From: Gemmatimonadota bacterium
GTDB lineage: Bacteria > Gemmatimonadota > Gemmatimonadetes > Palauibacterales > Palauibacteraceae
Assembly: GCA_021295785.1 (NCBI GenBank)
Contig: JAGWBR010000003.1
Coordinates: forward strand, 65,236 to 129,235
Reading direction: 5' to 3'
DNA: 64,000 bases
Under the pieces are notes generated by a model. It was not told the origin of the DNA and did not search any database. It was given only the letters and a program-made list of their open reading frames with translations. Each line of letters opens with the position of its first letter. Position 1 is the first letter of the stretch. The translations under genes and the position numbers were made by a program. Shown one piece after another: positions 801-30,020 of the stretch.

Positions 801-3099
<2,299 letters not shown>

Positions 3100-3103
<4 letters not shown>

Positions 3104-4188
3104 GCCGGGATCAACTCGCCGTCGGACATCTCGTACTGCGGCAGGCCCCTGGCTCCCCTCGGGCCTTCCTCCGCCCTGGACGACGTGAGAATGAGCTGCG
3201 CCGACTCCCGGCCTCCAAACAGCTCAAGCAGCCGGTTGCTGCGCCCGTCATCCAGTTCGGCAAAAATGTCATCCAGCAGGTAGACCGGTTCCCCGGCCAG
3301 GCGGCGCCTGAGCCGTTCGGCCTCGGCCAGCCGCAGGGCCAGCACTGCCGTGCGCTGCTGCCCGCTGGATCCGTAAACGCGCAGATCTCGGGACCCCTCG
3401 GGCCTTTCGGTAATGAACCGGAAATCGTCGCGGTGCGGGCCGATGGCTGTTGCACCCTGCGCCCTCTCTCTGGAACGCATCGAATCGAGGGCCTCCCGGA
3501 AGTCGGCCGCGTCGTCGGGACCCGAAGGTGCGTACGCCAAGACCCCACCCTCCCCGCCCGACACGTGCGCGAAAAACGACACAAAATCGCTCGAACTCTC
3601 CTGGATCCACGACCCGCGCCGCCGCGTCACGAGAGCACCCGCGTCGACCAACCCGTCCGTCCACGCGTCAATCTCCCCTTCGCTCGCGTCTCGCCGCAGC
3701 GCCTCGTTGCGGCGAACCAGCGCTGCCCGGTAGTTCTGGAGCGCACGCACGTATCCGGGGGATTCCAGCGCCAACGCGATATCGAGAAACCGGCGCCTTT
3801 CGACGGGTGAATTCCTGATGATGGACAGGTCTTCCAGACGGAACACCGAGATGCCGATCCGGCCCAGAGCATCCGACACGCGTTGGACGTCAAGCCCGCC
3901 TGCCTGAACCTTCTTGATCCGTTGCTTCCTGTCGTAAGCAGCAGCAACCCTCCCTCCCCCCTCAACCTCCGCCTCGACCCGGAACACATCTTGGTCGAAC
4001 GCCACAAGATCTCGGTCGGCCGCGCCCCGGAACGACCGGAACACCTCAAGATAACCGATGGCTTCGAGCAGGTTGGTCTTGCCCGCTCCGTTTGGGCCAA
4101 CCACGGCCGCGCCGGTTTCCGGGACCTCCCAGTCCAGCGGCGCCAAGTTCCTGAATCCCCTGATCTTGAGCTTCTTGAGGACCGCCAC
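3100..4188 (-). CDS. recF: DNA replication and repair protein RecF
   Basis: GTG start. VAVLKKLKIRGFRNLAPLDWEVPETGAAVVGPNGAGKTNLLEAI has the Walker A. C-terminal LLDDIFAELDDGR signature. 362 aa. Confidence 0.9.
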
Positions 4189-11516: not shown

Positions 11517-11583
11517 TTAAGCCTTCTGCGGCGGCGGTAGCGGAGCCTGAGTCAGGTCCGCCTCGCCTATGTGTGGCGTGATA

Positions 11584-11826
11584 CTAGTCGGCAGCGCGCG
11601 CCCTGCCGTGGGGGATCACCGGCGCGCAGTACCTGAGGCCAATGGTGCGGAGGACCTGGATATCCGATCCGCTCAGGTCCGGGTACCGCCCCGCCATGTA
11701 CTCAAGCGTGTCATCAAACCACGCCTCGCGCTCGTCAGGTTCAGCCTCCAACACCTGGCAAGCCCGGATGTGGCTGAATAATTCGTCCCGCGCTTTGTCA
11801 ACTTGATTGGTTTGGTGTCCTCCCAC
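11584..11826 (-). CDS. Small hypothetical protein (80 aa)
   Basis: Stand-alone ORF in a 450-bp gap. Acidic helical sequence (DELFSHIRACQVLEAEPDEREAWFDDTLEYMAGRYPDL). No family recognised; could be spurious. Confidence 0.25.
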   Translation of the reverse strand: MGGHQTNQVDKARDELFSHIRACQVLEAEPDEREAWFDDTLEYMAGRYPDLSGSDIQVLRTIGLRYCAPVIPHGRARAAD

Positions 11827-11962
11827 TTACCCTCCTGATATTTGTTTTCGGTATGCCCTTCGCCCCTTGCCGGACGCCGAAAAGGATACTCGCGCAGGCC
11901 TCCCTTCGCAAAGGTCCGCGATGCATGGGAAGGCCCCCGAGTCTGCGCCGGCCGGTGTTGTC

Positions 11963-13684
11963 TTACAGGCTGGGAGGTTGGGCGGCCCCGGTGCCAGGAG
12001 AGTACTCGTCCAGGTACATGTTGATCTGACTGATCCGCGTGTTGAACCTGATCTGGACGATGATCCTCTTATCGTCGTCGCTCAGGTAGACCTCAGAGTC
12101 GTTGTCTTCGCCGAATGAGCTGCTGGACCTGATGATCGGGCGGACCACAATGGTCTGGAAGGTTCCCGCCTCAACCTGGACTCGCTCCCGCCGTAGCACC
12201 TCGACAATCACCGGGTTGTCTTCTTCGTCGAAATGGCGCTGGAGGTTATGGACCTGCCCCACTTCGAGCGGCAGGGTCCTGACCAGGTAAAGCAGCGATA
12301 TCTCGTCCAAGGCTCCTTCCATGACCGTGAACCGCGGCGGGTCCGCCACTTCCGCGTAGACACCGGTTTCCTCGTCCAGTTCGTAGATGATCCCCGTTTT
12401 GCTTTGGTGGTCAATGACCGTGCGCCGGTCCCGGCTGAAACCGGGCTCCCGTACCTTCTCTTCGAACAGGAGGGACCGGAACGGATCCGGGGCGAGCCAG
12501 CTGACCGTGCGCTGTTCGAGCCGGAACCCCAGAACCCTCCCGCTCAGTTCCATTGCCAGGCGCAGGGTCTCGGTTCCGCGAATGAGCTCGCTCGCCTCGA
12601 CGGCGAGGCTGGCCACTCCGATCCGGCCACGGGCCCGGCCCCAGCCGGCCGTCACGGTGTACTGCGCTGTCTCACCAACTCCAAACGGCAGGTCAAGAAG
12701 GAAACCGTCGGGGTCGCGCGGGGGCGTATGGCTCTCAACACCGGCCAAACCGTTTGTCGGAGCCTGGGCGGCGAGGGGCAGCGCCGTCGCTCCCGCCCCC
12801 AGGGCGGCAGCTGCGGCGGCGGCCGACACCATCGCGACACGGGCCGCCGTGCTTCGGGCCGTGCGCCACAACGAACCGTCGCGTGCGGCCGAGGCGAGGC
12901 ACCTCAGTTCGCGCCTGGCCGAAAAACGGCTCGGTCGCAGCCGTCCGTAATCGTGCAGGCGTTGGCCTTGAAGCCTGATTTCGTGCCTGCGGCGTACGAA
13001 GGGCGCTGTGCGGGCCAGCAGTTCGACGTTGGCCGCCCAACCCTTGTGGCGCATCAGAGGGCCGGTGTCGGCCGCCTCGATGACGCGCTCAAGCAGGGTG
13101 AGCCGGTACAACCGGAAAGAACTCCCCGGGTTGCGGTCGCTCAGTCGCCCCCGCGCCCGTGCCGTGCGCCGCAGAGCGGCGCGGACAAGGCGGCGGCGCA
13201 GCCTGCCCCGTTTCGGGCCGGGGATGCGGGCCCCGGGCGGTACGGTGACCAGGTCAACACCCCCCTCAAACCGGCGGACCATCTCGGAAATCAGGTCCGG
13301 CGAATCAGTCAGATCAGCCTGCATGGTCAGAAGCCCATCGCGGCGAGGGTAATCGGAGCGACTCACAGCCGAGCGGATCAGCTGCTCGAGCGCCGCCGCC
13401 CGGCCCGGCCGGGCCGGAGGTTGCACGATCTCAACGGGAACGAGTTTGCTGTACCGCCGCACAATGTCGGTGAGCCTGTTACGGTCTCCGTCTCCACAGA
13501 CCAGAACCGTGTAGGCCGCCCGGTCACGGGCCGCTACCTGCCGCAGCCGCCACAACAGGGGGCCGAGGGTCGCCTCGTCCAGCGTCGGTATTCCGACGTA
13601 TATCAAAAACCGCCCTCCGAACTTTCTTCCGAGTTGTCTTTCGAGCTTTCCGGGGGTGAACCCTTCCAGCGCCGGTGGAACCAA
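11963..13684 (-). CDS. Composite protein: degenerate GT2-like (DPM1-like) N-terminal domain + Arg-rich linker + signal-peptide-like hydrophobic segment + DUF3108 C-terminal domain
   Basis: N-terminal: YTVLVCGDGDRNRLTDIVRRY...PGRAAALEQLI...LLTMQADLTDSPDLISEMVRRFEGGVDLVTV aligns with GT2 signature blocks but with DxD/DAD replaced (GDGD, QAD). Middle: ARVAMVSAAAAAAALGAGATALPLAAQAP. C-terminal: YTVTAGWGRARGRIGVASLAVE...VIDHQSKTGIIYELDEETG...LVRTLPLEVGQV is DUF3108-like. The 5' 80 nt overlap lpxL, so the real start is probably near 13600. Confidence 0.55.
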   Translation of the reverse strand: MVPPALEGFTPGKLERQLGRKFGGRFLIYVGIPTLDEATLGPLLWRLRQVAARDRAAYTVLVCGDGDRNRLTDIVRRYSKLVPVEIVQPPARPGRAAALEQLIRSAVSRSDYPRRDGLLTMQADLTDSPDLISEMVRRFEGGVDLVTVPPGARIPGPKRGRLRRRLVRAALRRTARARGRLSDRNPGSSFRLYRLTLLERVIEAADTGPLMRHKGWAANVELLARTAPFVRRRHEIRLQGQRLHDYGRLRPSRFSARRELRCLASAARDGSLWRTARSTAARVAMVSAAAAAAALGAGATALPLAAQAPTNGLAGVESHTPPRDPDGFLLDLPFGVGETAQYTVTAGWGRARGRIGVASLAVEASELIRGTETLRLAMELSGRVLGFRLEQRTVSWLAPDPFRSLLFEEKVREPGFSRDRRTVIDHQSKTGIIYELDEETGVYAEVADPPRFTVMEGALDEISLLYLVRTLPLEVGQVHNLQRHFDEEDNPVIVEVLRRERVQVEAGTFQTIVVRPIIRSSSSFGEDNDSEVYLSDDDKRIIVQIRFNTRISQINMYLDEYSPGTGAAQPPSL

Positions 13685-14472
13685 AAATACTGCTCGGGCC
13701 GGCGGCGAATCTCACGCTCCAGCGCCGCCATCCAGCGAACGGTCAACTCCCGCGCCGATACACCGGCCGGTACCCCCGCCCCGGTCGGGCCTTTAGATCC
13801 GTCGTCCATGCGTTCGTAGACGAACCTGTACCCCTCCGAGTCTCGCGCGGCATCTCGCACGAGCGCGGCAAAATACAGCGGCACCCCGGCGGCGATGCTC
13901 AGCTTGGCGGGTCCCCGGGAGGCGCGGGCCGGGCGTCCCAGGAACTGCACCCACTCACCACCGGGAGCGTGCTGATCGGCCACGACCGCCGCCACACCGG
14001 TGCGGGCTGCCCGCAGAAGGACCCCGGCCTGCCCGGGTCCCCTGTGGGTTACGCGTATTCCCAGACCCCGGCGCATCCTCCCGAGCAGAGGCCCGGCCAG
14101 CCAGCCCTGTGGCTGTACCGCAGCCACCAATCCCGTCCCGGACTGCGCGGTGGCGGCGGCACCCAGCTCCCAGTTGCCCAGGTGACCCGTCACCACCACC
14201 GCCCCTCCGGTCCCTTCCCGGCGGCCGTAGTCCAGCGACCGTACGAACTCTTCGACCCCTGCGATCCGGGAGAGCGTTGCCTCCAAGGTGCCGGGAGAAC
14301 GCGACGCCCGCCACGAAACGGCCAGTTCCCGACTGAAATGCCGGTAACACTCCCGGGCAACTTCCGCGGCCCAATCGGAGGATCGTTCGGGGAAGCTCGC
14401 CGTGACCTGCGACTGTGCCACCCGCCGCCGCCAGCCCGCCAGACGTGCTGCCTCACCGACCCAGGCTACCAC
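13603..14472 (-). CDS. Lysophospholipid/lipid A late acyltransferase (LpxL/HtrB/MsbB family)
   Basis: GTG start. VVVTGHLGNWELGAAA has the HX4D/E acyltransferase motif. C-terminal ...RRPEQYFWFHRRWK matches the LpxL family. Adjacent to an msbA-like gene. Confidence 0.8.
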   Translation of the reverse strand: MVAWVGEAARLAGWRRRVAQSQVTASFPERSSDWAAEVARECYRHFSRELAVSWRASRSPGTLEATLSRIAGVEEFVRSLDYGRREGTGGAVVVTGHLGNWELGAAATAQSGTGLVAAVQPQGWLAGPLLGRMRRGLGIRVTHRGPGQAGVLLRAARTGVAAVVADQHAPGGEWVQFLGRPARASRGPAKLSIAAGVPLYFAALVRDAARDSEGYRFVYERMDDGSKGPTGAGVPAGVSARELTVRWMAALEREIRRRPEQYFWFHRRWKGSPPESSKDNSEESSEGGF

Positions 14473-14509
14473 GGGGCACCGCCGGCCGTCCTGATTCCGT
14501 GTTCCGTAG

Positions 14510-16350
14510 CTATACGGCCACCGCCGCCAACTGAGGCGAGAACAGTTGCCAGAACTCGCCCCTGGCGGCTAGCAGATCGGCGCAGGTGCCTGACTCGGCA
14601 ATGCGGCCCTCCGAAAGAACCCAGATCCGGTCCACCTCCCGCACCGCGGCCAACCGGTGAGCCACGATCACGACCGTCCCGACATGCGGGTCTTCGGCAA
14701 GCCGGTCCAGCACACGTTTCTCCGACTCGGCGTCCAGGGCGGAGGTGGCTTCGTCCAGAATCAGCAGCGCCGGCCTGCGGTACGCCGCCCGCGCCAACCC
14801 GATCCGCTGGCGTTCGCCTCCGGAAAGGCGGGTGCCCCGGTCGCCAACACGGGTCGCGTAACCGGCCGACAAGCGCCCGATGAAATCGGCCGCACCGGCC
14901 ACCGCCGCAGCTGCCCCGACACGGTCCGTGTCGGGCTCCGCGCCGTAGGCGATGTTCGCGCTGATGGTGTCGTTGAACAGGTGCGTCTCCTGCGTCAGGA
15001 GCGCGACGCGGTTCCGCAGCCGGGACGCCGGGACCACGGAAATGTCACGGCCGTCAACCAGGACCCGACCGCCGTCTGGTTCCCAAAACCGGCAGACGAT
15101 TCCCGCCAGGGCGCTCTTACCCCCGCCGGACGCGCCGACCAGAGCCGCGCTGCTGCCGGCCGGGACCGCCATCGACACGCCACGCAGAACCGGCTTGTCG
15201 CGAGTGTAGCCGAATTCCAGGCCCTCCACCCGCAGGTCGGCGGCATTGGTGCCCCGTGCCGCTCCGTGTGCCGCCACCGTGGCAGGGCCCGACGAGGTCG
15301 CCGGCTCGGGTGCCCGGTCCAGGACCGAGAAGAACCGCCGGGCCGCAGCCAGAGCCGGTGCAGCCGCGGTCCGGTACCCGACCAACGCCTTGAAAGGTGA
15401 AATAGCGCGCAGGGCAATCACGACAAACGCCATGAACTGCTCGGGGGCCAACCCGGTCCCCCCCGACGCCAGGTTGGCGCCGGCCTGCACCAGTATGAGG
15501 GCCACCGCCGAGCCGAGCACCTCCGACAGGGGCGACGCGAGCAGGGCCGCGGACTCGGCGGAAACCGTGCGCTGGCGAACCGATTCGGAGTGTCGCCTGA
15601 ACCTGGCGGTCTCCCATGCCTCGGCACCCCAGGCCTTGACCAGCCTGATCGCGCCGAGCGTCTCCTGGAGGAGCGCCGACATCCGGCCGTGTTCGCGGAA
15701 GACCCGGCCGAAGCGGCCGCGCAGGCCCCTCAGCAACGGGCGGAGGATGAAACGGCTGGCCGGGACCAACAACAAAGCCGCCAGCGCCAGCACCCAAGAC
15801 AGGGCGGCCAGCGCGGCCGCGTAGGCGATCAGAGTCGCGGCGTGGCGGACGGCAGCCGCAAGCAGATCGGTCGCCGCGCTCTTCGCCCTCTCCGTGTCGG
15901 CTAGTACCCTCGCGGCCAGATCGCCGGCGCGGTTTGCCTCCAACCACCCCAGCGGAAGCCGGTGCAGCCGGTCGTGAACCGCATCCCGCATGTCGCGCGC
16001 CGAACGCTCGCGCACCCGCGCGGCCAGAACGGAGCTTCCCCACAGGCAGGCGTTCTTCAGCGCGATAGCCGCAAACACCGCCAGGCAAACCGCGCCCAGA
16101 CCTTCCAGTCCTTCCGCGGACCCAAGCCACCGGCCGGTTACTTCGTCGAGCAGCCGCTCGGCCAGATTTCTGCCCCCGTCGGGCAGGAGGGGGCCCATGT
16201 CGAAAAGCGAACGCAGGAACGGGATTAACAGGAGAAGTCCGAAAGCATCCAGACCCCCTGCCAGAGATCCGAGAACCACCGCCCCCGCGAACGCGCCCCG
16301 GGACGGCTTCGAAAAATGCAGCAGGCGCCGGAGTCCCGGCGGGGCAATCA
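14510..16350 (-). CDS. ABC transporter permease/ATP-binding protein, MsbA-like (lipid A/lipid exporter)
   Basis: 6-TM N-terminal domain beginning around LRRLLHFSKPSRGAFAGAVVLG. NBD with Walker A GASGGGKS, signature LSGGERQRIGLARA, Walker B LLILDEATSALD. The start is not ATG and is approximate; the ORF frame extends to 16483, overlapping the upstream gene. Confidence 0.85.
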
Positions 16351-17922
16351 CCGGGGAGTCAGCAACGCCACCGGCAGCACCATTTCTTCGAGGCTCACGC
16401 CCCCGTGCAGGAAACTGTTCCTGTACCTCCGCCGGTATTCGTTGAGCTTGGTCGGATAGACAAAGAAATAGTCTTCCCGGCACAAAACGTAGCTCTGCCG
16501 CAGCCCCCCCGGCGGCAACCTCAGCTCGTCTGCGTCGCGGGCGGAATACACGTTGTCGGGGTTCTCGGCGCGAATGTCGTTCCCGATCTTGTACCTGAGC
16601 CCGCGCGAGGCGTCCGGCCCGGCAAACACTGTGGTCGGACGGTGGCAGTGGATGGAGCCGTGGTCGGTAGTCACCAGAGTACGCACTCCCAGCCGGGCCG
16701 CCAACCGCAGGGCATCCAGCGCCGGTGATCTCTCGAACCAGGCGGTGGTCAGTGACCTCAGGGCACTTGGGTCGCCGGCAATCTCCCAGAGCAGCCGCGA
16801 CTCCGCCCTGCCGTGGGTCAACAAATCCACAAAGCCAAACACCAGCGCGGTGGCCCCCGGGGTCGACAGTACTCCACCCAGATTGGCCAGGGCCGTCCCC
16901 GCCTCACGCCGGGTAAAGACCCTCTCGTAGTGGGTTTTCACGCGCCGGCCGGCCGCCCGCTCCACCGCGTTCTGGAACAACTCGGCCTCGGGTGAATTGT
17001 CGCCCACGGCCCACCAGTCGGGCTTGACTTCCGCCAACTCGTCGGCAAACAAGCCCGTGAATATTCCGTTGCGAGAAAAGGGAGTGGCAGTCGGCAACAC
17101 CGATGAATACAGCGACTCCTCGATCTCGAAAAAGTCCTCCAGGTGCGGCCGAATCGCCCGCCACTGGTCCAGCCTCATGCAGTCCATCACGATGATCAGA
17201 GTCGATTCGTCCTCCCGCACCAGCGGGCCGAAGAACCGGGGCATGATATCGACCGAGAGCGGCGGGCCGCGCGCCCCGCCCTCGTGCACCCACTGCCCGT
17301 ATCGCTGGGCGACCAGGTCGCAGTACCCGCGGCGTGCCTCGGTCAAAAGACTGTCAAGCGTCTCGGCCAGCCCCGCCTCCCGAGCGGCATCCAGCCTCAA
17401 CTGCCAGTCCACCAGCTGCGAGTAGAGGTTGGCGTAATCCCGCCAAGAGCTGGCCTCCGCCGCCGCTTCCGCCAGCCGGGGATAGAGTCGTGTGAAGTCA
17501 CGGGCCATGAACTCGTGGCGCAGCTCGGGACCCGCGAGCAGGCGGGTCACCACCGAGAGGACCTGACGCGGACTGGTCGGCTTGACGATGTAGTCTTCCG
17601 CCCGGCGCCCGATCGCCTCGCGAAGCGTCGAGTCCTCTTCGCTCTTGGTGACCATTACCACAGGCAGACGGGGAGCCTCGCGCCTCACGCGCTCCAGCAC
17701 CTCGATGCCGCGCAGGCCGGGCATTCGCTCGTCCAGGAGCATGAGGTCGTAGCTCCAGCGCGACAACAACTCGAGCGCGTCGGCACCGTTCATTACGGGG
17801 TCGACAACGTAACCGGCCCGGCGGAGTGTCATTAGATGAGGACGAAGCATGTCGACTTCGTCGTCGGCCCACAGAATCCGTCCGCGGCTCTGGCCGCCCG
17901 CCGGCTCTTCTGAATCTCTCAT
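16348..17922 (-). CDS. Response regulator with C-terminal PglZ (alkaline-phosphatase-superfamily) domain; PorX-like
   Basis: ATG 17922-17920 gives MRDSEEPAGGQSRGRILWADDEVDMLRPHLMTLRRAGYVVDPVMNGADALELL...LLDERMPGLRGIEVL, a CheY-like REC with phospho-acceptor DD...D. Followed by about 400 aa of PglZ-like domain (TLIIVMDCMRLDQW...TTDHGS). No adjacent histidine kinase. Confidence 0.85.
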   Translation of the reverse strand: MRDSEEPAGGQSRGRILWADDEVDMLRPHLMTLRRAGYVVDPVMNGADALELLSRWSYDLMLLDERMPGLRGIEVLERVRREAPRLPVVMVTKSEEDSTLREAIGRRAEDYIVKPTSPRQVLSVVTRLLAGPELRHEFMARDFTRLYPRLAEAAAEASSWRDYANLYSQLVDWQLRLDAAREAGLAETLDSLLTEARRGYCDLVAQRYGQWVHEGGARGPPLSVDIMPRFFGPLVREDESTLIIVMDCMRLDQWRAIRPHLEDFFEIEESLYSSVLPTATPFSRNGIFTGLFADELAEVKPDWWAVGDNSPEAELFQNAVERAAGRRVKTHYERVFTRREAGTALANLGGVLSTPGATALVFGFVDLLTHGRAESRLLWEIAGDPSALRSLTTAWFERSPALDALRLAARLGVRTLVTTDHGSIHCHRPTTVFAGPDASRGLRYKIGNDIRAENPDNVYSARDADELRLPPGGLRQSYVLCREDYFFVYPTKLNEYRRRYRNSFLHGGVSLEEMVLPVALLTPR

Positions 17923-18009
17923 CTGGTCAGCAGGTCTCGGTCCATTGAAATACGGCTCCTCAGCCCGCAAGGCATGACGCGCGCACCGGTCCAAACGTAA
18001 CTTCGCGGC

Positions 18010-19395
18010 GTGAAAACGATCACCCGGTACGTACTCCGCTTGCATGTGGCGCCGTTCTTTTTTTCGGTTTCGGCGCTCACACTGGTCTTCCTGATGGACC
18101 AGGTGGGCGAGAAACTCCCCGACCTGGCCGGCAAGGGCCTGCACTGGACCATCATCGTGAAGGTGTTTGGGCTTTCGCTTCCGTTCATCCTGGCGCAGAC
18201 CGTTCCCATGGGTGTGCTCATCGCCGCCCTTTACGTGTTCAGCCGACTCGAACTGGACCGGGAGATTACCGCGCTCAGGGCGGCGGGGGTCTCAATTGTG
18301 CGGACGGCGGGGCCGCTCTTGGTTGCCGCGGTGATGCTGACCGGGTTCATGGTTTGGTTTTCCGACCGCGTGCTGCCCGAGTCCAATCACGAGCTGACCA
18401 AACTGACGGTTGGGATCCAGAGGAAAAAGCCCCTTTTCTCCATGAGGGAAGGAACGCTCAACGGCGTATTGCCGCGAGTTTACTTGCAGGCGGCCCGGAT
18501 TGACCACGAAACCAACCAGATGTCCGAGGTTCGTCTCTACGACGAGCGGGGCGGTCAGCAGAGCCGGACGGTCTACGCGGACAGCGGCTCCACCACTCCC
18601 GGCAACAAGGGCACCGACCTTTTCCTTCACCTTGGGGACGGGGTGGTGCAGGAGAAACCGTGGCAGCGTTCGGACATGTTCCGGCAGATCCATTTTGACA
18701 ACATGATCATGAGGCTGCCCGATATCGCCAACGACCTGGAAGTTGACTCCGTCCAGGCGCGCGGCGAGCGCGAGATGTCGATTGCCGACATGAGGGTTGC
18801 CGCCGCCGAGGGGGACAAGCGGGCCGAACTGGCCAAGTCGGAAACCGGCGCGTTCACGCACCAGGTCACCCACCGGATCTTGGGGATTGCCGCCCCCGCG
18901 GAGTCCGGAGCGGAAGGGGTCGGGGGCGGAGCGGGCACCACCGAAGAGGCGCTGCAATTGGCCGCTGCCGATTCGACTTTCGCCGAGGCGCTGGGCACGG
19001 TGGTTCAGCGGGGCCGGGACCAGGGCGAGCGCGTGCACAGGACCGTGGAGGTAACCGAGACCTTCAGGCAGCTGACCGCCCGCGAACGCGCCGGCGTCAA
19101 CACCTCCCGGAGATACTGGGTTGAGATCCACAAGAAGGGTTCCATCCCGGCGGCCTGCATTGCATTCGTGCTGCTGGCCGTGCCAGTCGCCATTCGTTAT
19201 CCGAGGGGGGGAGTGGCTCTGGTGGCCGGGGTCAGCTTCACGATATTCGCGGCCTATTACCTGGCGCTCAGCGGCGGAGAGAAGCTGGCCGACCAAGACC
19301 TTGTGACGCCGCTGTGGGCGATGTGGCTGCCCAACGTCCTGTTTGGGGGAGTGGGCCTCTGGATTCTGATGCGCACCCGGACGGCGTTCCGGTGA
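18010..19395 (+). CDS. LptF/LptG-family (YjgP/YjgQ) LPS export permease
   Basis: GTG start. VKTITRYVLRLHVAPFFFSVSALTLVFL is the typical LptF/G N-terminus. Large periplasmic beta-jellyroll region. C-terminal TM helices (YWVEIHKKGSIPAACIAFVLLAVPVAI). Confidence 0.85.
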   Translation: MKTITRYVLRLHVAPFFFSVSALTLVFLMDQVGEKLPDLAGKGLHWTIIVKVFGLSLPFILAQTVPMGVLIAALYVFSRLELDREITALRAAGVSIVRTAGPLLVAAVMLTGFMVWFSDRVLPESNHELTKLTVGIQRKKPLFSMREGTLNGVLPRVYLQAARIDHETNQMSEVRLYDERGGQQSRTVYADSGSTTPGNKGTDLFLHLGDGVVQEKPWQRSDMFRQIHFDNMIMRLPDIANDLEVDSVQARGEREMSIADMRVAAAEGDKRAELAKSETGAFTHQVTHRILGIAAPAESGAEGVGGGAGTTEEALQLAAADSTFAEALGTVVQRGRDQGERVHRTVEVTETFRQLTARERAGVNTSRRYWVEIHKKGSIPAACIAFVLLAVPVAIRYPRGGVALVAGVSFTIFAAYYLALSGGEKLADQDLVTPLWAMWLPNVLFGGVGLWILMRTRTAFR

Positions 19396-21723: not shown

Positions 21724-23330
21724 TTAAGCCCCGGCGCCGGCAGTTTCGTCGGTGCCGCCTGCCTCCTCAAGGGCCTTGTTCAGCTCGCGCCGTGCGGTCC
21801 GCGTAACTAACGCCACAACCAAGACCGTGGCGACCAAACCGGCAACCAGCAGTGCGGTCTGTCCCCAATCGGCCGCCCCGCCCGCGGCCGCCGCCACTTC
21901 GGCCCCCGCCGCGCCGAAATAGACGTAGAGCATGGTCCCCGGCAGCATGGCGACCAACGAAGACGCCAGGTAGTGCCGGTGTTTCGCCTTGGTCAATCCG
22001 TAGAAGTAGTTCTGGACATTGAAGGGGAACGCCGGCGACAGTCGGGTCAACACAATTACGCGCCACCCCTGTTTCTCGACCGCGCGGTCCACGGCCTGGA
22101 GCCTCTTCCGACCGGAGAGCCACTTCTCGACCCTGGATCGCAGCAGGTACCGGGCCACCAGGAACGCGAGGTTGGCGCCGAGGTTGGCACCCGCGACGAC
22201 AGTCGCAGTGCCCAGTCCAAACCCGAAGGCCACTCCGGCGCCGATTGTCATCAGGGAGGCCGGAATCAGGCAGACGACCAGTACGGCATAAATGAGGGCG
22301 TATACCACCGGCCCCAACCATCCAAGGTTCGTGACCCATTCACCCAGAGCATCGACCTTCTGGCCCAACCACCCGCGCTCGGACGCCCCTTTTCCCGAAG
22401 CGCCCGATTCCTGGCTGTCCTGGTCGGTCCCCCCTCCGAACGGAAACGGTACCAGCCCGGCCTGAAGCTGCCGGGGTTCGGGCTCCTGCCCGGTGCCCCC
22501 CGTAGCCTGATTGAGGTCCCAATCGTAATCCACAATCTCCACGCGGATTCCCGGGTTGGCCGCTACCGCAGCCCGCACTTCTTCAGTAGCGTACATCGCT
22601 ACGAACCGCGGGATGGTCTCGGCCCGCGGGGTCCACCCCTGCTCCGTGAAATCGGTCCCGTACCAGTCGAAGTAGCTGCTGAGGTACAGTCGCCCGTTAC
22701 GGAGGGTGACATTGGTCGGATCCGTCAGGAAGGACCGGGATCGCTCCTCCAACTGGGACTCCAGTTCGGTCCCGTTGAACGCCCAGTTGGGGAGCGGAGC
22801 GCACGACATGGAGGCGCAGTTGACCGCGAAGTGAATCCGCGGGTCCCGCCAGAACGGCCTGAGCACGTTGTGTTCGATGTTGTCCAGAGTGAGCCGGTGC
22901 CCTCCCACGTTCCATGTGCGGTCGGTCCACACGCCGTCAATCTCGCGGATCGAACTGACGCCCCAATCGTCGAGAATCGCCGCCACCGTGATCGCGTTGT
23001 AGGCATTGATCAAGAAAGCCATCAACTCGTCGGCGGCCAGCGAGGCGAGGTTCGCGGCCGCAATCTGGCCGAGGTAAACGTCCAGCAGATTCCTGTTGTC
23101 GATCATGTACTGGTAGTCCACCAGCCCCTCGCGGGCCCCGCCGCGCAGAAGCTCGTCCCAGATGCTGTGATCGAACGTGGCGGTGCCGCCCTCCAGGGCA
23201 GCTTGGACCTGCTGCGCCACCGGACCCTCGATCGCCTGCGACACCGGGGCCGAACACGCCGGCAGGGGCACGGCGACCAGCACGACGGCGCACGCCGTGG
23301 CACGGGCCCCGCTCCATCTCGAGCGAAACC
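21724..23330 (-). CDS. Fusion protein: DUF547 domain + DedA/TVP38 (SNARE-associated) membrane domain
   Basis: N-terminal lipoprotein-like signal (AVVLVAVPLPACSAP). DUF547 motifs (FLINAYNAITV, SYFDWYGTDF). C-terminal DedA/TVP38 TM region (LGPVVYALIYAVLVVCLIP...VLTRLSPAFPFNVQNYFYGLT). Start approximate; the six-frame ORF extends to 23583. Confidence 0.65.
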
Positions 23331-23366
23331 CCACGGGCCGCTTCCGCGGCCGGCCGCGGGTCGGAA

Positions 23367-24677
23367 TCACCGCGGGATCTCCAGTCGGTCGTGCACTGCC
23401 AGAATACGCTGGATTTCTTCGTGGGGCAGACCGTGCACCACGTTGCCGTCTCGGCCCGTCATGGTCCGGGCCGCCACCATGGCGTTGGTAATAGCTTCCT
23501 CGGTGGCCAGCGCCGTCGCCAGCATGAGCGGCGACATGCGCGGATTTGAAACCATCGATAATCCGGCTCCTTCCTGTGTCCACGCGCCCTCGTTGGCTGT
23601 TGAGAACGCGATGAAGATGTCGCCCGAACTGTCGGCGCCGTAGCCCCCCATCCGCCCGATGCCAACCGGCACCCGGCGCGCGAGACGCTTCAGCTGATGC
23701 GGCAAAAGCGGTGCGTCCGTCGCAACAACCACGATTATCGAGCTTCCGCCCCGGGGTTGGTTTTCCAGCGTCCCGGCGCCTGGTTCACCGGACCCATCTC
23801 CCGCGCCGTTTTCCCTCCCGCCCGCGGGCGGCCAGCCCAGTAGTTCTCGGCCGACGGGCACGCCAGCGATCAGCAGTTCGGGTCTGCGCCCGTAGTTGCA
23901 CTGAACCAGGACGCCCACCGTGTAGGACCCCACGACCCGCGAAGAGGTCCCGATCCCGCCCTTGAACGAGTTGCACACCATCCCGGTGCCGCCCCCGACT
24001 GAGCCCTCGCTGACCGGGCCGCCGGCCGCCGACTCGATGGCCGCGAACACATGCCGCTTGCGGACGTGAAACCCGTTGATGTCGTTCAGCCGCCCGTCCC
24101 AAGTCTCCGCCACGACGGGCAGGCTCCACCAAACCCCCGGCGCATCTGGATTCAGTGCGGCGGCATTCCGCGACCACTCGATGGTGGCCTGATGGACCGT
24201 CCCCACGCTGTGGGTATTGGTGATCATGACCGGACCCTCGAGGAACCCGGACTCCTCCACCCAGGTGGTCCCCGTCATTTCGCCGTTTCCGTTCAGCGAA
24301 TACCAACCCGCGAACACCGGTTCGCTGGTGCCGGTCCGGGGGAAAACAGCCGTGACGCCGGTGCGGACCGGCCCCTGCCCCACGACCAGCGGGCCATCGC
24401 CCTCGATAATGGTGGAGTGCCCTACCCTGACTCCTTCCACGTCGGTAATGGCGTTGAGCGGTCCCGGGACGCCCTGGAACGGGATGCCGAGATCCCTTGC
24501 CCTTGGAGCGCCCGCGCCCGGGTCCTGACCCCGGGCGGCCGACGGCAGCAGCAGGCAGAGGCCAAACAGCAGGCCCGCACTTCTAGCGGAACGCGCTCTG
24601 GATCCCAAGGGTGAAAACCGTGGAAGGGCGGAAACCGAAGCTCCCCGGAAGCGGGGCAAGAAAATCGCTGACAACAT
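23367..24677 (-). CDS. DmpA/OAT (peptidase S58, L-aminopeptidase/D-Ala-esterase-amidase) family protein, secreted
   Basis: ITDVEGVRVGHSTI...GVTAVFP...GFLEGPVMITNTHSVG...GGTGMVCNSFKGGIGTSS...SIIVVVATDAPLL are DmpA family signatures. Signal peptide LLFGLCLLLPSAARGQ. Start uncertain: the ATG at 24677 would give a 95-nt same-strand overlap with the upstream gene. Confidence 0.75.
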   Translation of the reverse strand: MLSAIFLPRFRGASVSALPRFSPLGSRARSARSAGLLFGLCLLLPSAARGQDPGAGAPRARDLGIPFQGVPGPLNAITDVEGVRVGHSTIIEGDGPLVVGQGPVRTGVTAVFPRTGTSEPVFAGWYSLNGNGEMTGTTWVEESGFLEGPVMITNTHSVGTVHQATIEWSRNAAALNPDAPGVWWSLPVVAETWDGRLNDINGFHVRKRHVFAAIESAAGGPVSEGSVGGGTGMVCNSFKGGIGTSSRVVGSYTVGVLVQCNYGRRPELLIAGVPVGRELLGWPPAGGRENGAGDGSGEPGAGTLENQPRGGSSIIVVVATDAPLLPHQLKRLARRVPVGIGRMGGYGADSSGDIFIAFSTANEGAWTQEGAGLSMVSNPRMSPLMLATALATEEAITNAMVAARTMTGRDGNVVHGLPHEEIQRILAVHDRLEIPR

Positions 24678-25989
24678 CCAGCATCCCCCCGATTCTGGCC
24701 TTGAAGCCGAGACTGGCGTTGAGGTAACCGCGGAACGGATCGTTGATTTCAATGGGAGAGACCTCGGTGTTGACGCCGGCCGGTATAATTGCCGGGGGCG
24801 GGGCGGCGGGGCCGCTCCCCCGGAATTCCCAGCCTCCCTGAAGCCCGCCCGAAATCGAAAGTCCCCGCTGGGGCCGGTAGTCCGCACCGACGCCGACCAG
24901 CGCCTGGTCCCTTTCCGGGTTTTCGGCCCGGGCAAGGTAGCCGAGGTTGGCGTGCCAGCTCATCACTTTCGAGCGAGCCGTAAACGCGGCGATCACCCGC
25001 GCCCGCGCCTCGCCCGCACCGAGCAGATCGTCGGCCGCACCCGTTGGCAGCGACACTTCGGCCAGCAGCGCGCCCGTGACACGCGGCGGGCCGCCCGCCG
25101 CGGGCACCCCGTGAGCCCCGCCACCAATGCTGAGCCTCATCCGGGCCGCCAAGTCACCCATCCCGGTGGCAGTTCCCCTGACCTCCCTGCTTGCACCCAG
25201 CACAGGAATTGACGGCGTGCCGCCGAACCGGTGCGGACGACCCGGATCGATGGTTACTATCGCTGCTTCCGACGACGCATTCAGGGTGGTGGTCACCGCC
25301 GGCACCGTCAGGCCGAAGTCCAGAAAATCCGTCAAACCCAGACCGAGGCCGAAGTTGACCCGCATCATGTCCAGAGCAATGGTCGAAGACGCCGAAATGA
25401 CGTCTGTTTCGGAAGACTCGCCGGGCTCCGGCGGACCGTGGACGAAAACCGTCGAAAACCCGGAGGTGGATGTTCCGTTGATTCGGTTGAACCGGGCGAA
25501 ACTCGCGTCAACACCCAGGTTGAAACGGCCCCGGCCCAGCGTCATTGCCCGGAGGAGCCTGGTCGGACCGGGGTCTTCTTCGTCGGCCAGGACCCGCCCC
25601 AGGAACGGCGTGGCCAGGGGCATGTTCCCGGGAACCTCGTTCAGAACACCGGTCAAGAACGAAATCACCGCCGCGTTGGACGGGGAATTCTCCGGCACGA
25701 AATGGCTGTCGTGCCCGCCCGGATCGCCCGTCGTCGGCTGAAGGCACAGCGGCGCGCCGCATTCGATATAGTCGAAAAGGGACTCCAGAAGGCTGCTCAT
25801 CGACTGCCCCCGCACAGACCCGGGCGCTCCAGCGGCCAACAATGCCGGCACCAGGAAGAACTTCGGGACGCGATGTGTTCTCAAGATCTCGTGCCTTCTG
25901 GCGGTGGGGAGCGCATTTTCGGCAATTGAGCGCGTCTCTGGCGGTGAGGCGCCCGTTTCCCGCGGCGCGGAGCTTACATTACACTTCAA
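24583..25989 (-). CDS. Hypothetical outer-membrane beta-barrel protein
   Basis: Signal peptide (FFLVPALLAAGAPGSVRGQ). Alternating amphipathic beta-strand pattern. C-terminal ...VFTLGIQSAFR resembles an OMP terminal strand. No family recognised. Confidence 0.45.
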   Translation of the reverse strand: MKCNVSSAPRETGASPPETRSIAENALPTARRHEILRTHRVPKFFLVPALLAAGAPGSVRGQSMSSLLESLFDYIECGAPLCLQPTTGDPGGHDSHFVPENSPSNAAVISFLTGVLNEVPGNMPLATPFLGRVLADEEDPGPTRLLRAMTLGRGRFNLGVDASFARFNRINGTSTSGFSTVFVHGPPEPGESSETDVISASSTIALDMMRVNFGLGLGLTDFLDFGLTVPAVTTTLNASSEAAIVTIDPGRPHRFGGTPSIPVLGASREVRGTATGMGDLAARMRLSIGGGAHGVPAAGGPPRVTGALLAEVSLPTGAADDLLGAGEARARVIAAFTARSKVMSWHANLGYLARAENPERDQALVGVGADYRPQRGLSISGGLQGGWEFRGSGPAAPPPAIIPAGVNTEVSPIEINDPFRGYLNASLGFKARIGGMLDVVSDFLAPLPGSFGFRPSTVFTLGIQSAFR

Positions 25990-26102
25990 GGGTCACCTTT
26001 GCTTTGGCCGGACGGCAGGTCGCGTCCTTCACCACCGCTGCGACAGGAGGCTGTTGATCAACGCCCACACCGGGAATTGCTAGCCGCCCGCCGGAGGCTC
26101 GG

Positions 26103-27893: not shown

Positions 27894-28579
27894 GCGGCGT
27901 CACCCGCCGGCGGATGCTCAAGACCCTCGCCGCGGGCGCCGCGGGGGCAGCGGGGGCCGTTGGGTCGGCGGGGTGCGGCGGGGACGGGCGTCCCGGAGAC
28001 AGCGGTGGAGCCGCCCGTGGCAGCGGCGCGGGCCGTGCGGCAGGCGGTCCGGGCAATCCCCTCGCTGCCGGCACGCCTACCGACCCTGACCTCATCAACC
28101 CGACCGTCCCGTGGGATTCGGTCCTGACAGAAGACGAACTGCGGCGGCTCGCCGCCCTGTGCGACGTGATAATCCCGGCCGACGACCGTTCGCCTGCGGC
28201 CGCCTCGATCGGTGCCCAGGATTTCATCAACGAATGGGTCAGCGCGCCGTACGAGGGCAACCAGAACGACCTCACTCTGATCCGCGGCGGGCTCGCTTGG
28301 CTCGACCGTGAGGCGACGGCGCGGTTCGGATCGGAGTTCTCCGGGTTGCCCGCGGCGCAGGCCCGCGCGATTTGCGACGACATATGCATGGAGAGCCGCG
28401 CGGCGCCGGAGTTCAAGACGGCCGCCCGGTTTTTTGACCGAGTCCGGGACCTTACGTCGACTGCGTTCTGGACCTCGGCCGAAGGGATGGAAGACCTCGG
28501 ATTCGTGGGGAATCGACCGATGGCCAGCTTTGAGGGTCCGCCGCGGGAGGTCCTGGACCTGCTCGGCATCACCCCGTGA
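27890..28579 (+). CDS. Gluconate 2-dehydrogenase subunit-3-family small subunit with Tat signal
   Basis: GTG at 27890 overlaps the GMC stop (GTGA). VSGVTRRRMLKTLAAGAAGAAGA is a twin-arginine motif. Conserved DELRRLAALCDVIIPADDRSPAAASIGAQDFINEWV. Confidence 0.7.
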   Translation: MSGVTRRRMLKTLAAGAAGAAGAVGSAGCGGDGRPGDSGGAARGSGAGRAAGGPGNPLAAGTPTDPDLINPTVPWDSVLTEDELRRLAALCDVIIPADDRSPAAASIGAQDFINEWVSAPYEGNQNDLTLIRGGLAWLDREATARFGSEFSGLPAAQARAICDDICMESRAAPEFKTAARFFDRVRDLTSTAFWTSAEGMEDLGFVGNRPMASFEGPPREVLDLLGITP

Positions 28580-28626
28580 CCGGGCCACACTGCCAGCCGG
28601 GGACCAGACAAAGGAGAGAACACGGC

Positions 28627-29997: not shown

Positions 29998-30020
29998 CCG
30001 GCTGGGGGATTGCTTCCTGA

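What the first reader, a model, noticed from the sequence alone, without database searches (positions are those of the whole stretch)
11963..13684. Degenerate GT2-like domain fused to DUF3108 with an internal signal-peptide-like segment, overlapping lpxL
The N-terminal approx. 220 aa aligns block by block with DPM1-type GT2 glycosyltransferases but has lost the DxD/DAD carboxylates (GDGD, QAD). It would therefore be a pseudo-glycosyltransferase or binding module. It is followed by an Arg-rich linker, a hydrophobic AAAAAAALGAGATALPLAAQA segment (which could be an internal signal anchor or a true signal peptide of a separately translated DUF3108 protein), and a DUF3108 domain. It lies immediately downstream of and overlapping the LpxL-family gene, so it may be an accessory factor of outer-membrane lipid biogenesis.
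Basis: partly seen in the sequence, partly recalled or inferred. Interest (0 to 1): 0.55.

Follow-up and report, generated by a model that had tools for sequence, protein, structure and literature searches.

The report
Fused glycosyltransferase-like and DUF3108 gene
This is a real single gene in a Gemmatimonadota bacterium, made by joining two neighbouring genes (a cytoplasmic glycosyltransferase-like protein and a secreted barrel protein of unknown function), so the barrel's export signal now sits mid-protein; it is a moderately interesting variant of known families, not a new kind of system.

Summary
The ORF is real, and both Pfam domains pass their cut-offs (GT2 34 bits, DUF3108 96 bits). 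The likely start is TTG 13606, not 13684. That gives 547 aa and a 4-nt TTGA overlap with the lpxL-family stop.

The gene belongs to a gene pair so far seen only in Gemmatimonadota. One partner is a GT2 domain most like DPMS/GtrB/ArnC. The other is a secreted DUF3108 beta-barrel. The two are always adjacent. They are one ORF in about 57 of 81 species-level loci and separate, usually 4-nt-overlapping, genes in 24.

The window's closest syntenic relatives are split. Its fusion is nevertheless genuine:
- an independent contig 98.8% identical carries the same intact ORF;
- that ORF differs by 22 substitutions and no indel;
- the codon-phase GC pattern is the same in both halves.

The "internal signal-peptide-like segment" is the DUF3108 protein's own Sec signal peptide.

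The non-canonical "QAD" is a family-wide feature ([H/Q/P]-A-D). The degenerate "GDGDRN" is specific to this lineage, which departs from 20 of 59 family-conserved positions. The GT2 half is still under purifying selection (pN/pS 0.08).

Function is unproven. Linkage to msbA-lpxL holds in one clade only. Verdict: partly supported, new variant of known kinds, modest interest.

The parts
11963..13606 (-). Fused gene: 547 codons plus stop (11963-11965), from the likely start TTG 13604-13606
   Evidence: ORF. The start is supported by the sequence (GGAGG 13614-13618, TTGA overlap with the lpxL stop). It is also supported by the identical N-terminus of P0001/P0002 and about 80 orthologues, and by the gene call on the independent contig L082.
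13607..13684 (-). Upstream extension of the longest ORF (26 codons), probably not translated
   Evidence: No orthologue aligns to these residues. The stretch lies inside the lpxL-family coding region.
12887..13606 (-). GT-A / GT2 glycosyltransferase-like domain (residues 1 to about 240), DPMS/GtrB/ArnC-like, predicted cytoplasmic
   Evidence: PF00535 scores 34 bits. PDB hits are GtrB and PfDPMS. Foldseek also finds GtrB/DPMS. AF2 pLDDT is about 70-89 for residues 1-120 and lower after that.
13475..13501 (-). Degenerate nucleotide-binding loop VCGDGDRNR (residues 36-44); orthologues have DD[AG]S[T]D[G]
   Evidence: Column counts: D38 is G here versus D in 74/81. S41 is D here versus S in 79/81. 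D43 is N here versus D in 79/81. D39 is kept (80/81).
13298..13324 (-). DxD-equivalent MQADLTDSP (residues 95-103). The first Asp is replaced across the whole family, and the metal-ligand Asp D98 is invariant
   Evidence: One search gives H43/Q25/P13 at position 96 and D in 81/81 at position 98. Residue roles come from PMC5526996 and PMC12698845.
12839..12943 (-). Basic C-terminal tail of the GT2 half, running into the n-region of the signal peptide (residues 222-256); this is the fusion junction
   Evidence: The tail aligns with the C-termini of stand-alone GT2 orthologues, which end ...RRYRxSRFRxxxxLWxLxRASRDxxLRR followed by a stop.
12767..12838 (-). Internal signal-peptide h-region VAMVSAAAAAAALGAGATALPLAA (residues 257-280), followed by Q-A-P; possible signal peptidase I site LAA|QAP
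   Evidence: It is the only hydrophobic peak in the protein. It is homologous in position to the N-terminal signal peptides of split orthologues. Cleavage is inferred, not shown.
11966..12706 (-). DUF3108 beta-barrel domain (Pfam match at residues 315-533 = nt 12008..12664), predicted periplasmic
   Evidence: PF11306 scores 95.9 bits. AF2 pLDDT is above 90. Foldseek top hits are EipB/DUF1849 6NTR (1.8e-5), 4FVS and BF2203 3FZX (3e-5).
13603..14472 (-). Upstream LpxL/PatA-family acyltransferase gene, translationally coupled to the fused gene (TTGA)
   Evidence: PF03279 at 7e-20. NCBIfam hits are all below their cut-offs. Sequence.
14510..16483 (-). MsbA-like ABC exporter, same strand and same apparent operon
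   Evidence: PF00664 plus PF00005. TIGR02203 MsbA at 1e-108, but below its cut-off.

Best explanation
The feature is one real gene, formed by an in-frame fusion of two genes that are always neighbours in Gemmatimonadota.

- The first partner encodes a roughly 250-aa GT-A glycosyltransferase-like protein with no membrane segment. It is related to the polyprenyl-phosphate glycosyltransferases DPMS/GtrB/ArnC.
- The second partner encodes a roughly 270-aa DUF3108 beta-barrel that carries a Sec signal peptide.

In the window the stop codon and frame offset between the two have been lost, so the signal peptide is now internal.

Expected product (inferred): the GT-like half stays on the cytoplasmic face of the inner membrane. 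The hydrophobic segment inserts N-in/C-out, and the DUF3108 barrel is placed in the periplasm. There it either stays tethered or is released by signal peptidase I near LAA|QAP.

In this lineage the GT-like half has lost several family-invariant active-site-loop residues but is still under purifying selection. It probably acts as a non-catalytic or altered-specificity nucleotide/lipid-binding module (inferred).

The gene sits last in a porX-like / msbA / lpxL-family operon, next to lptF and lptG. The pair most likely works on an envelope glycolipid: LPS/lipid A or a polyprenyl-phosphate-linked sugar. The DUF3108 barrel, which resembles EipB/YmcC and more remotely LolA/LprG, would bind the lipid on the periplasmic side (inferred, weakest step).
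For: Shown:
- Both domains pass Pfam cut-offs.
- The family profile hits PfDPMS, GtrB and ArnC best.
- A scan of one genome per species found 191 relatives. The best 80 are all Gemmatimonadota or unnamed MAGs, and the two halves are adjacent in every one.
- The halves are fused in 56-58 loci and split in 24.
- 16 of 25 split loci have an [A/G]TGA start/stop overlap. Five have the halves in the same frame, separated by a single stop.
- A neighbour-joining tree puts the window among split relatives (sister is L084, Ca. Palauibacter). Fused forms lie in at least three separate places, so fusion or fission recurred.
- The independent contig L082 (ENA ERZ18545435) is 98.8% identical over 19.6 kb, with 230 mismatches. 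It carries the same intact 547-codon ORF with 14 synonymous and 8 non-synonymous changes and no indel.
- The GT2 part has 10 synonymous and 2 non-synonymous changes, pN/pS 0.08, P = 1e-4.
- The GC1/GC2/GC3 phase pattern is the same in both halves.
- Hydrophobic segments in fused orthologues are signal-peptide-like: median 14 uncharged residues, range 10-24, versus 16.5 in split ones. They have Arg-rich n-regions and an A|Q-type end.
- The window departs at 20 of 59 family-conserved positions (D38G, S41D, D43N, F99L, D159N, G163S and others), against a median of 1 in the other sequences. It keeps E11, D39 and D98.
- The DUF3108 model has pLDDT above 90. Its best fold matches are EipB 6NTR, 4FVS and 3FZX; matches to YmcC, LprG, LppX and VioE are weaker.
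- The operon porX-like / msbA / lpxL / GT2(+)DUF3108 is conserved in the window, in L083 (32% identity, fused) and in L084 (split).
Against: - No experiment exists on any member of this pair. Only 5 papers in the library mention DUF3108, and none gives a function.
- Linkage to msbA-lpxL is confined to one clade. In Gemmatimonadales the pair follows a GT4 gene. In other Gemmatimonadota it stands alone with a GSU2086-family gene. The LPS connection may therefore be incidental.
- Fold similarity to known lipid binders (LprG, LppX) is weak: E about 4e-3 to 1e-2, TM about 0.3.
- D39, D98 and E11 are kept and selection is purifying. This fits a still-active enzyme as well as a pseudo-enzyme.
- The AF2 model of GT2 residues 120-300 has low confidence.
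- Cleavage at the internal signal peptide was not tested. The AQA-P alternative site would have a disfavoured Pro at +1.
- Recurrent fusion could be a neutral consequence of 4-nt overlaps, with no functional meaning.
Confidence: 0.6

Rival explanations
1. The GT2 half is a fully active glycosyltransferase. It would be tethered at the inner membrane by the former signal peptide and transfer a sugar to a phosphate acceptor (polyprenyl phosphate or a lipid A precursor). A DPMS-type mechanism would apply, which needs no catalytic base.
For: - D39 (base contact), D98 (metal ligand) and E11 are kept.
- Purifying selection gives pN/pS 0.08.
- PfDPMS is described as not needing a catalytic base, and its D89A variant keeps residual activity (PMC5526996).
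- The whole family lacks the first Asp yet is strongly conserved.
Against: - The window alone has lost D38, S41, D43, D159 and G163 of the family-invariant loops. It is the most deviant of the 81 sequences.
- The Gln that helps bind the metal in DPMS/GtrB is V/T/A in the family and T here.
- The Pfam GT2 score is 34 bits, against 41-76 bits in orthologues.
Confidence: 0.3
2. The fusion is an assembly or sequencing artefact. A 1-nt indel would have merged two overlapping genes that are really separate in the organism.
For: - The closest syntenic relatives (L084, L054-L076) have two genes in different frames with 4-nt overlaps.
- A single indel would therefore be enough.
Against: - The same intact ORF occurs on an independently assembled contig that differs by 230 substitutions over 19.6 kb, with no indel in the gene.
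- Codon-phase GC is continuous.
- There is no stop in frame and no orthologue-like start/stop pair at the junction.
- About 57 other species carry fused forms.
Confidence: 0.03
3. Two proteins are made from the one ORF by internal translation initiation at M259 (or a nearby GTG). DUF3108 would then be produced separately with its own N-terminal signal peptide.
For: - An ATG lies immediately before the hydrophobic stretch.
- Split orthologues show that the DUF3108 half can work as a separate protein.
Against: - No Shine-Dalgarno-like GGAGG precedes that ATG, unlike at the gene's own start.
- A product starting at M259 would lack the Arg/Lys n-region that every orthologous signal peptide has. 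The basic residues (R248-R256) lie upstream of M259.
Confidence: 0.1
4. The pair has nothing to do with LPS or lipid A. It would serve another glycoconjugate or metabolic pathway defined by its most constant neighbour, the GSU2086-family protein. The position after lpxL would be incidental.
For: - The GSU2086-family gene follows DUF3108 with a 4-nt overlap in most loci of both clades, at 56-64% identity.
- lpxL/msbA linkage occurs in one clade only, and GT4 linkage in another.
Against: - In the window the GSU2086-family gene is absent from all 64 kb.
- The 4-nt coupling to the lpxL-family gene and the porX/msbA/lpxL order are kept across relatives only 32% identical.
- lptF and lptG are adjacent.
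Confidence: 0.35

Closest known systems
Polyprenyl-phosphate glycosyltransferases: PfDPMS (5MLZ), GtrB (5EKP), ArnC (9HWJ/8VXH)
   Same: - GT-A/GT2 catalytic domain.
- These are the best sequence-profile and fold matches.
- Shared motifs: PxxNE, the D of the DG loop, xAD with the metal-ligand Asp, and a DxxSGF-like motif in the family.
- ArnC is the best NCBIfam match for orthologues.
   Different: - No C-terminal transmembrane helices. The only hydrophobic segment comes from the partner's signal peptide.
- The first Asp of DxD and the metal-helping Gln are absent family-wide.
- The window has also lost the DDxSxD loop.
- All scores are far below the equivalog cut-offs.
DUF3108 / YmcC-like fold proteins (Bacteroides fragilis BF2203, PDB 3FZX; Burkholderia BTH_I0360; Neisseria NGO1223)
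   Same: - Clear PF11306 membership.
- Fold match to 3FZX.
- Exported via a signal peptide.
   Different: - Known members are stand-alone exported proteins of unknown function (PMC4364669, PMC6424457).
- Here the domain is fused behind a cytoplasmic GT2 domain, so the signal peptide is internal.
Brucella EipB (DUF1849, PDB 6NTR), a periplasmic beta-spiral protein needed for envelope integrity
   Same: - Best Foldseek match of the C-terminal domain (E 1.8e-5, target TM 0.56-0.59).
- Periplasmic, cup-shaped beta-sheet with a mostly hydrophobic lumen (bioRxiv 10.1101/551135).
   Different: - A different Pfam family with no detectable sequence similarity.
- EipB is a stand-alone protein linked genetically to TtpA, not to a glycosyltransferase.
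Bradyrhizobium japonicum FbcH, a cytochrome b-c1 precursor cleaved at an internal signal peptide (recalled from memory: Thony-Meyer et al., around 1989-1991; not found in the paper library)
   Same: One ORF encodes a membrane/cytoplasm-side part followed by an internal signal peptide and an exported part. It is a precedent for processing into two proteins.
   Different: Unrelated proteins. Processing is demonstrated there and only hypothesised here.
Human DPM1 with its membrane tether DPM3 (recalled from memory)
   Same: A DPMS-type catalytic domain without its own transmembrane helices, which depends on another element for membrane attachment.
   Different: The eukaryotic enzyme has a canonical DAD motif. 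The tether is a separate small membrane protein, not a fused exported domain.

Membership tests
Glycosyltransferase family 2 (Pfam PF00535, GT-A fold) | Significant match to the family HMM over the N-terminal Rossmann-like half | tested here: met
   34.0 bits against a cut-off of 23.3, covering profile positions 2-165 of 168. Orthologues score 41-76 bits.
Glycosyltransferase family 2 (Pfam PF00535, GT-A fold) | Nucleotide-binding loop DDGSxD | tested here: not met
   The window has G-D-G-D-R-N. Only the second Asp (D39) is kept. Orthologues have DD[AG]S[T]D in 74-80 of 81 sequences.
Glycosyltransferase family 2 (Pfam PF00535, GT-A fold) | DxD metal/diphosphate motif | tested here: inconclusive
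   The window has Q-A-D. The first Asp is absent in all 81 family members (H/Q/P), and the second Asp is invariant. In PfDPMS and GtrB the second Asp is the metal ligand.
Polyprenyl-phosphate glycosyltransferases (DPMS/GtrB/ArnC) | Closest homology of the catalytic domain | tested here: met
   Family profile against the PDB: 5MLZ 2.5e-16, 5EKP 1e-13, 9HWJ 2e-13; the next family scores 9e-6.
Polyprenyl-phosphate glycosyltransferases (DPMS/GtrB/ArnC) | DADLQ motif, with Gln assisting metal binding | tested here: not met
   The window has QADLT. At the Gln position the family has V 38, T 27 and A 9.
Polyprenyl-phosphate glycosyltransferases (DPMS/GtrB/ArnC) | C-terminal transmembrane helices following juxtamembrane amphipathic helices | tested here: not met
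   Stand-alone orthologues are 248-285 aa with no hydrophobic segment. The window has a single hydrophobic peak, which is the partner's signal peptide. Amphipathic Arg-rich helices at residues 134-156 and 227-247 are only suggestive.
Polyprenyl-phosphate glycosyltransferases (DPMS/GtrB/ArnC) | Transfer of a sugar from a nucleotide sugar to polyprenyl phosphate | not testable with these tools
   Needs biochemistry.
DUF3108 (Pfam PF11306) | Full-length match to the family HMM | tested here: met
   95.9 bits against a cut-off of 26, covering profile positions 1-209 of 209.
DUF3108 (Pfam PF11306) | YmcC-like beta-barrel fold | tested here: met
   AF2 pLDDT is above 90 over residues 310-540, which are all-beta. 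Foldseek hits: 3FZX 3e-5, 4FVS 2.7e-5, 2IN5 (YmcC) 7.8e-3.
DUF3108 (Pfam PF11306) | Exported via an N-terminal signal peptide | tested here: inconclusive
   A signal-peptide-like n/h/c segment is present, but it is internal (residues 248-283). It is N-terminal in the 24 split orthologues. SignalP was not available.
LolA/LolB/LprG/LppX-type periplasmic lipid carriers | Half-barrel fold with a hydrophobic ligand cavity; binding of acylated ligands | tested here: inconclusive
LpxL-type late lipid A acyltransferase (the neighbouring gene) | Match to PF03279 and to an LpxL equivalog model above its cut-off | tested here: inconclusive
   PF03279 at 7e-20 is met. All NCBIfam models are far below their cut-offs, and the best is a 'lysophospholipid acyltransferase family' model. 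A PIM acyltransferase model also hits.

The most novel reading that the evidence does not exclude
The fused proteins, here and in about 57 other Gemmatimonadota species, would be bacterial two-compartment polyproteins.

- The internal signal peptide, which is too short in most orthologues (10-14 uncharged residues) to be a stable membrane anchor, is cleaved by signal peptidase I.
- One translation event would therefore yield equal amounts of two proteins. One is a GT-like protein tail-anchored on the cytoplasmic face. The other is a free periplasmic DUF3108 barrel.
- The barrel would receive the lipid-linked sugar or glycolipid that the GT-like partner makes or binds.

This would give the widespread DUF3108 family its first function.
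Probability: 0.2. Interest if true: 0.55.

Novelty: new variant of a known kind. Interest (0 to 1): 0.3.

Why it matters
DUF3108 is a widespread exported protein family. It has solved structures but no known function. This work shows that across a whole phylum it is an obligate neighbour of a DPMS/GtrB/ArnC-like glycosyltransferase-like protein, and is repeatedly fused to it. That gives a concrete, testable lead: the two act at one site on opposite faces of the inner membrane, on a lipid-linked sugar or glycolipid.

The fused forms are also a natural test case for how bacteria handle an internal signal peptide that follows a folded 250-residue cytoplasmic domain.

For genome annotation there are two practical lessons. 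The gene should start at TTG 13606. The fusion is not an assembly error.

The significance is limited. Both domains belong to known families. The architecture is already present, uncharacterised, in public databases (JGI names it "DUF3108/glycosyl transferase family 2"). No function is demonstrated.

Tried and rejected
- The promoter/terminator scan of 11400-18400 gave nothing above the shuffled background near the gene.
- Searches of the paper library found no function for DUF3108, nothing on LPS in Gemmatimonadota and no copy of the FbcH polyprotein papers. That precedent is therefore cited from memory.
- The conserved downstream protein (GSU2086 family) has no Pfam hit and no PDB sequence relative. 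It is absent from the window.
- I looked for an ArnT-like GT-C, a flippase or a second GT2/DUF3108 copy in the 64-kb window. None was found among the ORFs scanned or by tblastn.
- The word-index protein search with the single sequence found only 3 homologues. Profile queries were needed. Even then the 120 listed hits did not reach beyond Gemmatimonadota, so whether the GT2-DUF3108 pairing exists in other phyla stays open.
- A lipoprotein (lipobox) reading of the hydrophobic segment was rejected. There is no Cys in or after it in the window or in most orthologues.
- Stop-codon read-through or selenocysteine was considered for the five loci with one in-frame stop between the halves, and rejected. 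An ordinary start codon and signal peptide follow within 0-6 codons in four of them; L004 has no ATG/GTG/TTG in frame within 90 nt of the stop.
Full report
**1. Observation**

The minus strand carries an uninterrupted ORF at 11963..13684 (573 aa from the first TTG).
- Pfam detects PF00535 Glycos_transf_2 at residues 30-199 (34.0 bits, cut-off 23.3).
- Pfam detects PF11306 DUF3108 at residues 341-559 (95.9 bits, cut-off 26).
- NCBIfam has no model for the protein.

The upstream same-strand ORFs are a PF03279 lipid A acyltransferase-family protein (13603..14472) and an MsbA-like ABC exporter (14510..16483). Further upstream lies a response regulator with a PglZ domain. It passes NCBIfam's PorX model (493 bits, cut-off 300). 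lptF and lptG lie divergently beyond it.

**2. Start codon and overlap**

At 13606-13603 the sequence reads TTGA.
- TGA is the stop of the lpxL-family gene.
- TTG begins M-I-Y-V-G-I-P.
- A GGAGG lies 7 nt upstream.

P0001 (98% identical) and P0002 (35%) both begin MIYV, and so do about 80 orthologues. The real product is thus most likely 547 aa. The overlap with lpxL is a 4-nt translational-coupling overlap, not 82 nt. All residue numbers below use the 547-aa numbering.

**3. Relatives**

A scan of one genome per bacterial species found 191 relatives. The 80 retained are all Gemmatimonadota or unnamed MAGs. Exhaustive HMMER against 1.84 billion representatives gave 409 hits below 1e-30. A profile search of the 5.8-billion-protein set gave 2075 hits. 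Among those listed, the two-domain architecture is common, and JGI has auto-named it "DUF3108/glycosyl transferase family 2".

I re-derived the ORFs in every locus.
- The two halves lie in one ORF in 56-58 loci and in two ORFs in 24.
- In the split loci the GT2 gene ends with a basic tail (…RRYRxSRFRxxxxLWxLxRASRDxxLRR, then a stop).
- The DUF3108 gene then begins with an ordinary signal peptide.
- 16 of 25 split loci have an [A/G]TGA start/stop overlap.
- Five have the halves in the same frame, separated by one stop codon. An ordinary start codon follows within 0-6 codons in four of these.
- Gene calls on long contigs confirm both states. GT2 (249 aa) plus DUF3108 (277 aa) occur in Ca. Palauibacter. 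GT2 (248-285 aa) plus DUF3108 (255-267 aa) occur in two other lineages. Fused proteins of 541 and 501 aa occur elsewhere.

**4. Is the window's fusion real?**

A neighbour-joining tree of the DUF3108 domain puts the window inside a clade whose other members are split; its sister is the Palauibacter locus. Fused forms also appear in L083, in L003 and throughout a large Gemmatimonadales clade. On its own this could suggest a frameshift error in the window. Three results argue against that.
- Contig L082, from a separate ENA assembly, is 98.8% identical over 19.6 kb, with 230 mismatches. It has the same 1644-nt ORF with 14 synonymous and 8 non-synonymous differences and no indel.
- GC content by codon position keeps the same phase (GC2 low, GC3 high) in both halves.
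- There is no orthologue-like stop/start pair at the junction.

The junction lies where the GT2 tail (…SAARDGSLW, compare P0192 …ATRDSSLR) runs straight into the n-region of the signal peptide (RTARSTAAR). Fusion or fission has happened at least three times in the phylum. This is easy to explain: with a 4-nt overlap, or a same-frame single stop, one small mutation converts one state into the other.

**5. The hydrophobic segment**

It is the only hydrophobic peak in the protein. It occupies the same position as the N-terminal signal peptides of the split orthologues.
- Across fused orthologues the uncharged stretch is short: median 14 residues, range 10-24.
- It is preceded by Arg/Lys and followed by an A|Q-type end.
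- It is as signal-peptide-like as in split orthologues, whose median is 16.5.

Most of these stretches are too short for a stable transmembrane helix. Cleavage by signal peptidase I is therefore a serious possibility, but it is an inference. The window has the longest stretch: 24 residues, Ala-rich, ending LAA|QAP. Internal initiation at M259 is unlikely. No Shine-Dalgarno sequence precedes it, and a product starting there would lack the basic n-region.

**6. The GT2 half**

By sequence its nearest solved relatives are GtrB and PfDPMS. The family profile hits PfDPMS 2.5e-16, GtrB 1e-13 and ArnC 2e-13, well ahead of other GT2 enzymes. Foldseek agrees.

In PfDPMS the metal is held by D91 and Q93 of DADLQH, while D89 contacts the sugar, and D89A keeps residual activity (PMC5526996). 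In GtrB, D96 and Q98 hold Mg2+, and D94 is only a candidate base (PMC12698845).

In the present family:
- the second Asp is invariant (81/81);
- the first position is H, Q or P, never D;
- the Gln position is V, T or A.

"QAD" is therefore the family's normal state. In contrast, 74-80 of 81 members have a canonical DD[AG]S[T]D loop, while the window has GDGDRN. At the 59 positions conserved in at least 90% of the other sequences, the window departs at 20 (D38G, S41D, D43N, F99L, D159N, G163S and others). That is the most of any sequence; the median is 1. Its Pfam score is the lowest seen (34 bits against 41-76).

Yet comparison with L082 gives 10 synonymous against 2 non-synonymous changes in this domain (pN/pS 0.08, P = 1e-4). 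The domain is not decaying. My reading is a lineage-specific change: a loss or alteration of nucleotide-sugar use, with the fold retained for binding or scaffolding. A still-active enzyme is not excluded (about 0.3).

**7. The DUF3108 half**

AlphaFold2 with a 62-sequence alignment gives pLDDT above 90 for an all-beta domain at residues 310-540. Best Foldseek matches:
- Brucella EipB (DUF1849, 6NTR), 1.8e-5;
- the Parabacteroides lipoprotein 4FVS, 2.7e-5;
- the DUF3108 structure 3FZX, 3e-5.

YmcC, LprG, LppX and VioE match more weakly. EipB is a periplasmic beta-spiral needed for envelope integrity. It has a largely hydrophobic lumen and an unknown ligand (bioRxiv 10.1101/551135). DUF3108 itself has no known function. 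Only five papers in the library mention it.

**8. Context and function**

The order porX-like / msbA / lpxL-family / GT2(+)DUF3108 is kept in the window, in a relative 32% identical (L083, fused) and in Palauibacter (split, with a GT9 heptosyltransferase and lptFG nearby). This supports an LPS-related role in that clade. In Gemmatimonadales, however, the pair follows a hybrid kinase and a GT4 gene. In other lineages it has neither neighbour.

The most constant third partner is a GSU2086-family protein (NF052581, 390 bits). It is usually coupled by a 4-nt overlap and is 56-64% identical across clades. It is missing from the window. The lpxL-family neighbour is itself below every LpxL equivalog cut-off, and it also resembles lysophospholipid and PIM acyltransferases.

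The functional statement is therefore limited to this: a cytoplasmic GT-like module and a periplasmic lipid-binder-like barrel that act together on an envelope glycolipid. That step is inferred.

**9. Comparison with known systems and verdict**

- The gene is a member of GT2 by HMM, but it fails the DDGSxD test and meets DxD only in part.
- It is related to the polyprenyl-phosphate glycosyltransferases, but it lacks their transmembrane helices and the DADLQ signature. It should not be filed as one.
- It is a clear DUF3108 member, with an unusual internal signal peptide.

The architecture already exists, unstudied, in public databases. I rate it a new variant of known kinds, of modest interest (0.3). 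The most novel reading not excluded is a cleaved two-compartment polyprotein that links DUF3108 to lipid-linked sugar handling (probability about 0.2).

Noticed in passing
window 16348..18144 (-): The response regulator with a PglZ domain directly upstream of msbA passes NCBIfam's equivalog model for PorX, the type IX secretion response regulator (493 bits, cut-off 300). The porX-like / msbA / lpxL order is conserved in distant Gemmatimonadota.
   Followed up: partly
L085:11503-12459, L088:6801-7808, L089:6765-7739 and most other related loci; absent from the window: A protein of about 320 aa from the GSU2086 family (NF052581, 390 bits; no Pfam hit, no PDB sequence relative) follows the DUF3108 gene with a 4-nt overlap in most Gemmatimonadota loci. 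It is 56-64% identical across clades, much more conserved than the GT2/DUF3108 pair itself.
   Followed up: partly
window 11584..11826 (-): An 80-aa ORF with no Pfam or NCBIfam hit lies just downstream of the fused gene. It is conserved, next to the CNNM/CorC-type transporter gene, in the syntenic clade.
   Followed up: partly
L002, L004, L005, L006, L077 (junction regions): In five species the GT2 and DUF3108 halves lie in the same reading frame, separated by a single stop codon (TGA or TAG). A start codon follows 0-6 codons later in four of them; L004 has no ATG/GTG/TTG in frame near the stop. One point mutation would fuse or split them.
   Followed up: yes
window 21724..23583 (-): A 619-aa ORF combines DUF547 with a VTT/DedA-type membrane domain. 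DedA-family proteins have been linked to polyprenyl-phosphate recycling (from memory). It lies about 8 kb from the LPS gene cluster.
   Followed up: no
window 24583..25989, 26058..27872, 27829..30174, 39293..41110 (all -): Four long ORFs (468-781 aa) have no Pfam match at E <= 1e-4. Some overlap long ORFs on the opposite strand, so they may be uncharacterised genes or may be products of high G+C content.
   Followed up: no
window 801..4188 (-) and L082:17374-19599: gyrB, a DciA-family gene and recF lie at the left end of the window. The window therefore probably sits near the chromosomal replication origin region.
   Followed up: no
L076 and L080 (junction and DUF3108 regions): In these two loci the DUF3108 match starts late (query residues 25 and 102), and no start codon lies near the GT2 stop. 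This suggests local assembly errors or gene decay in those MAGs.
   Followed up: no
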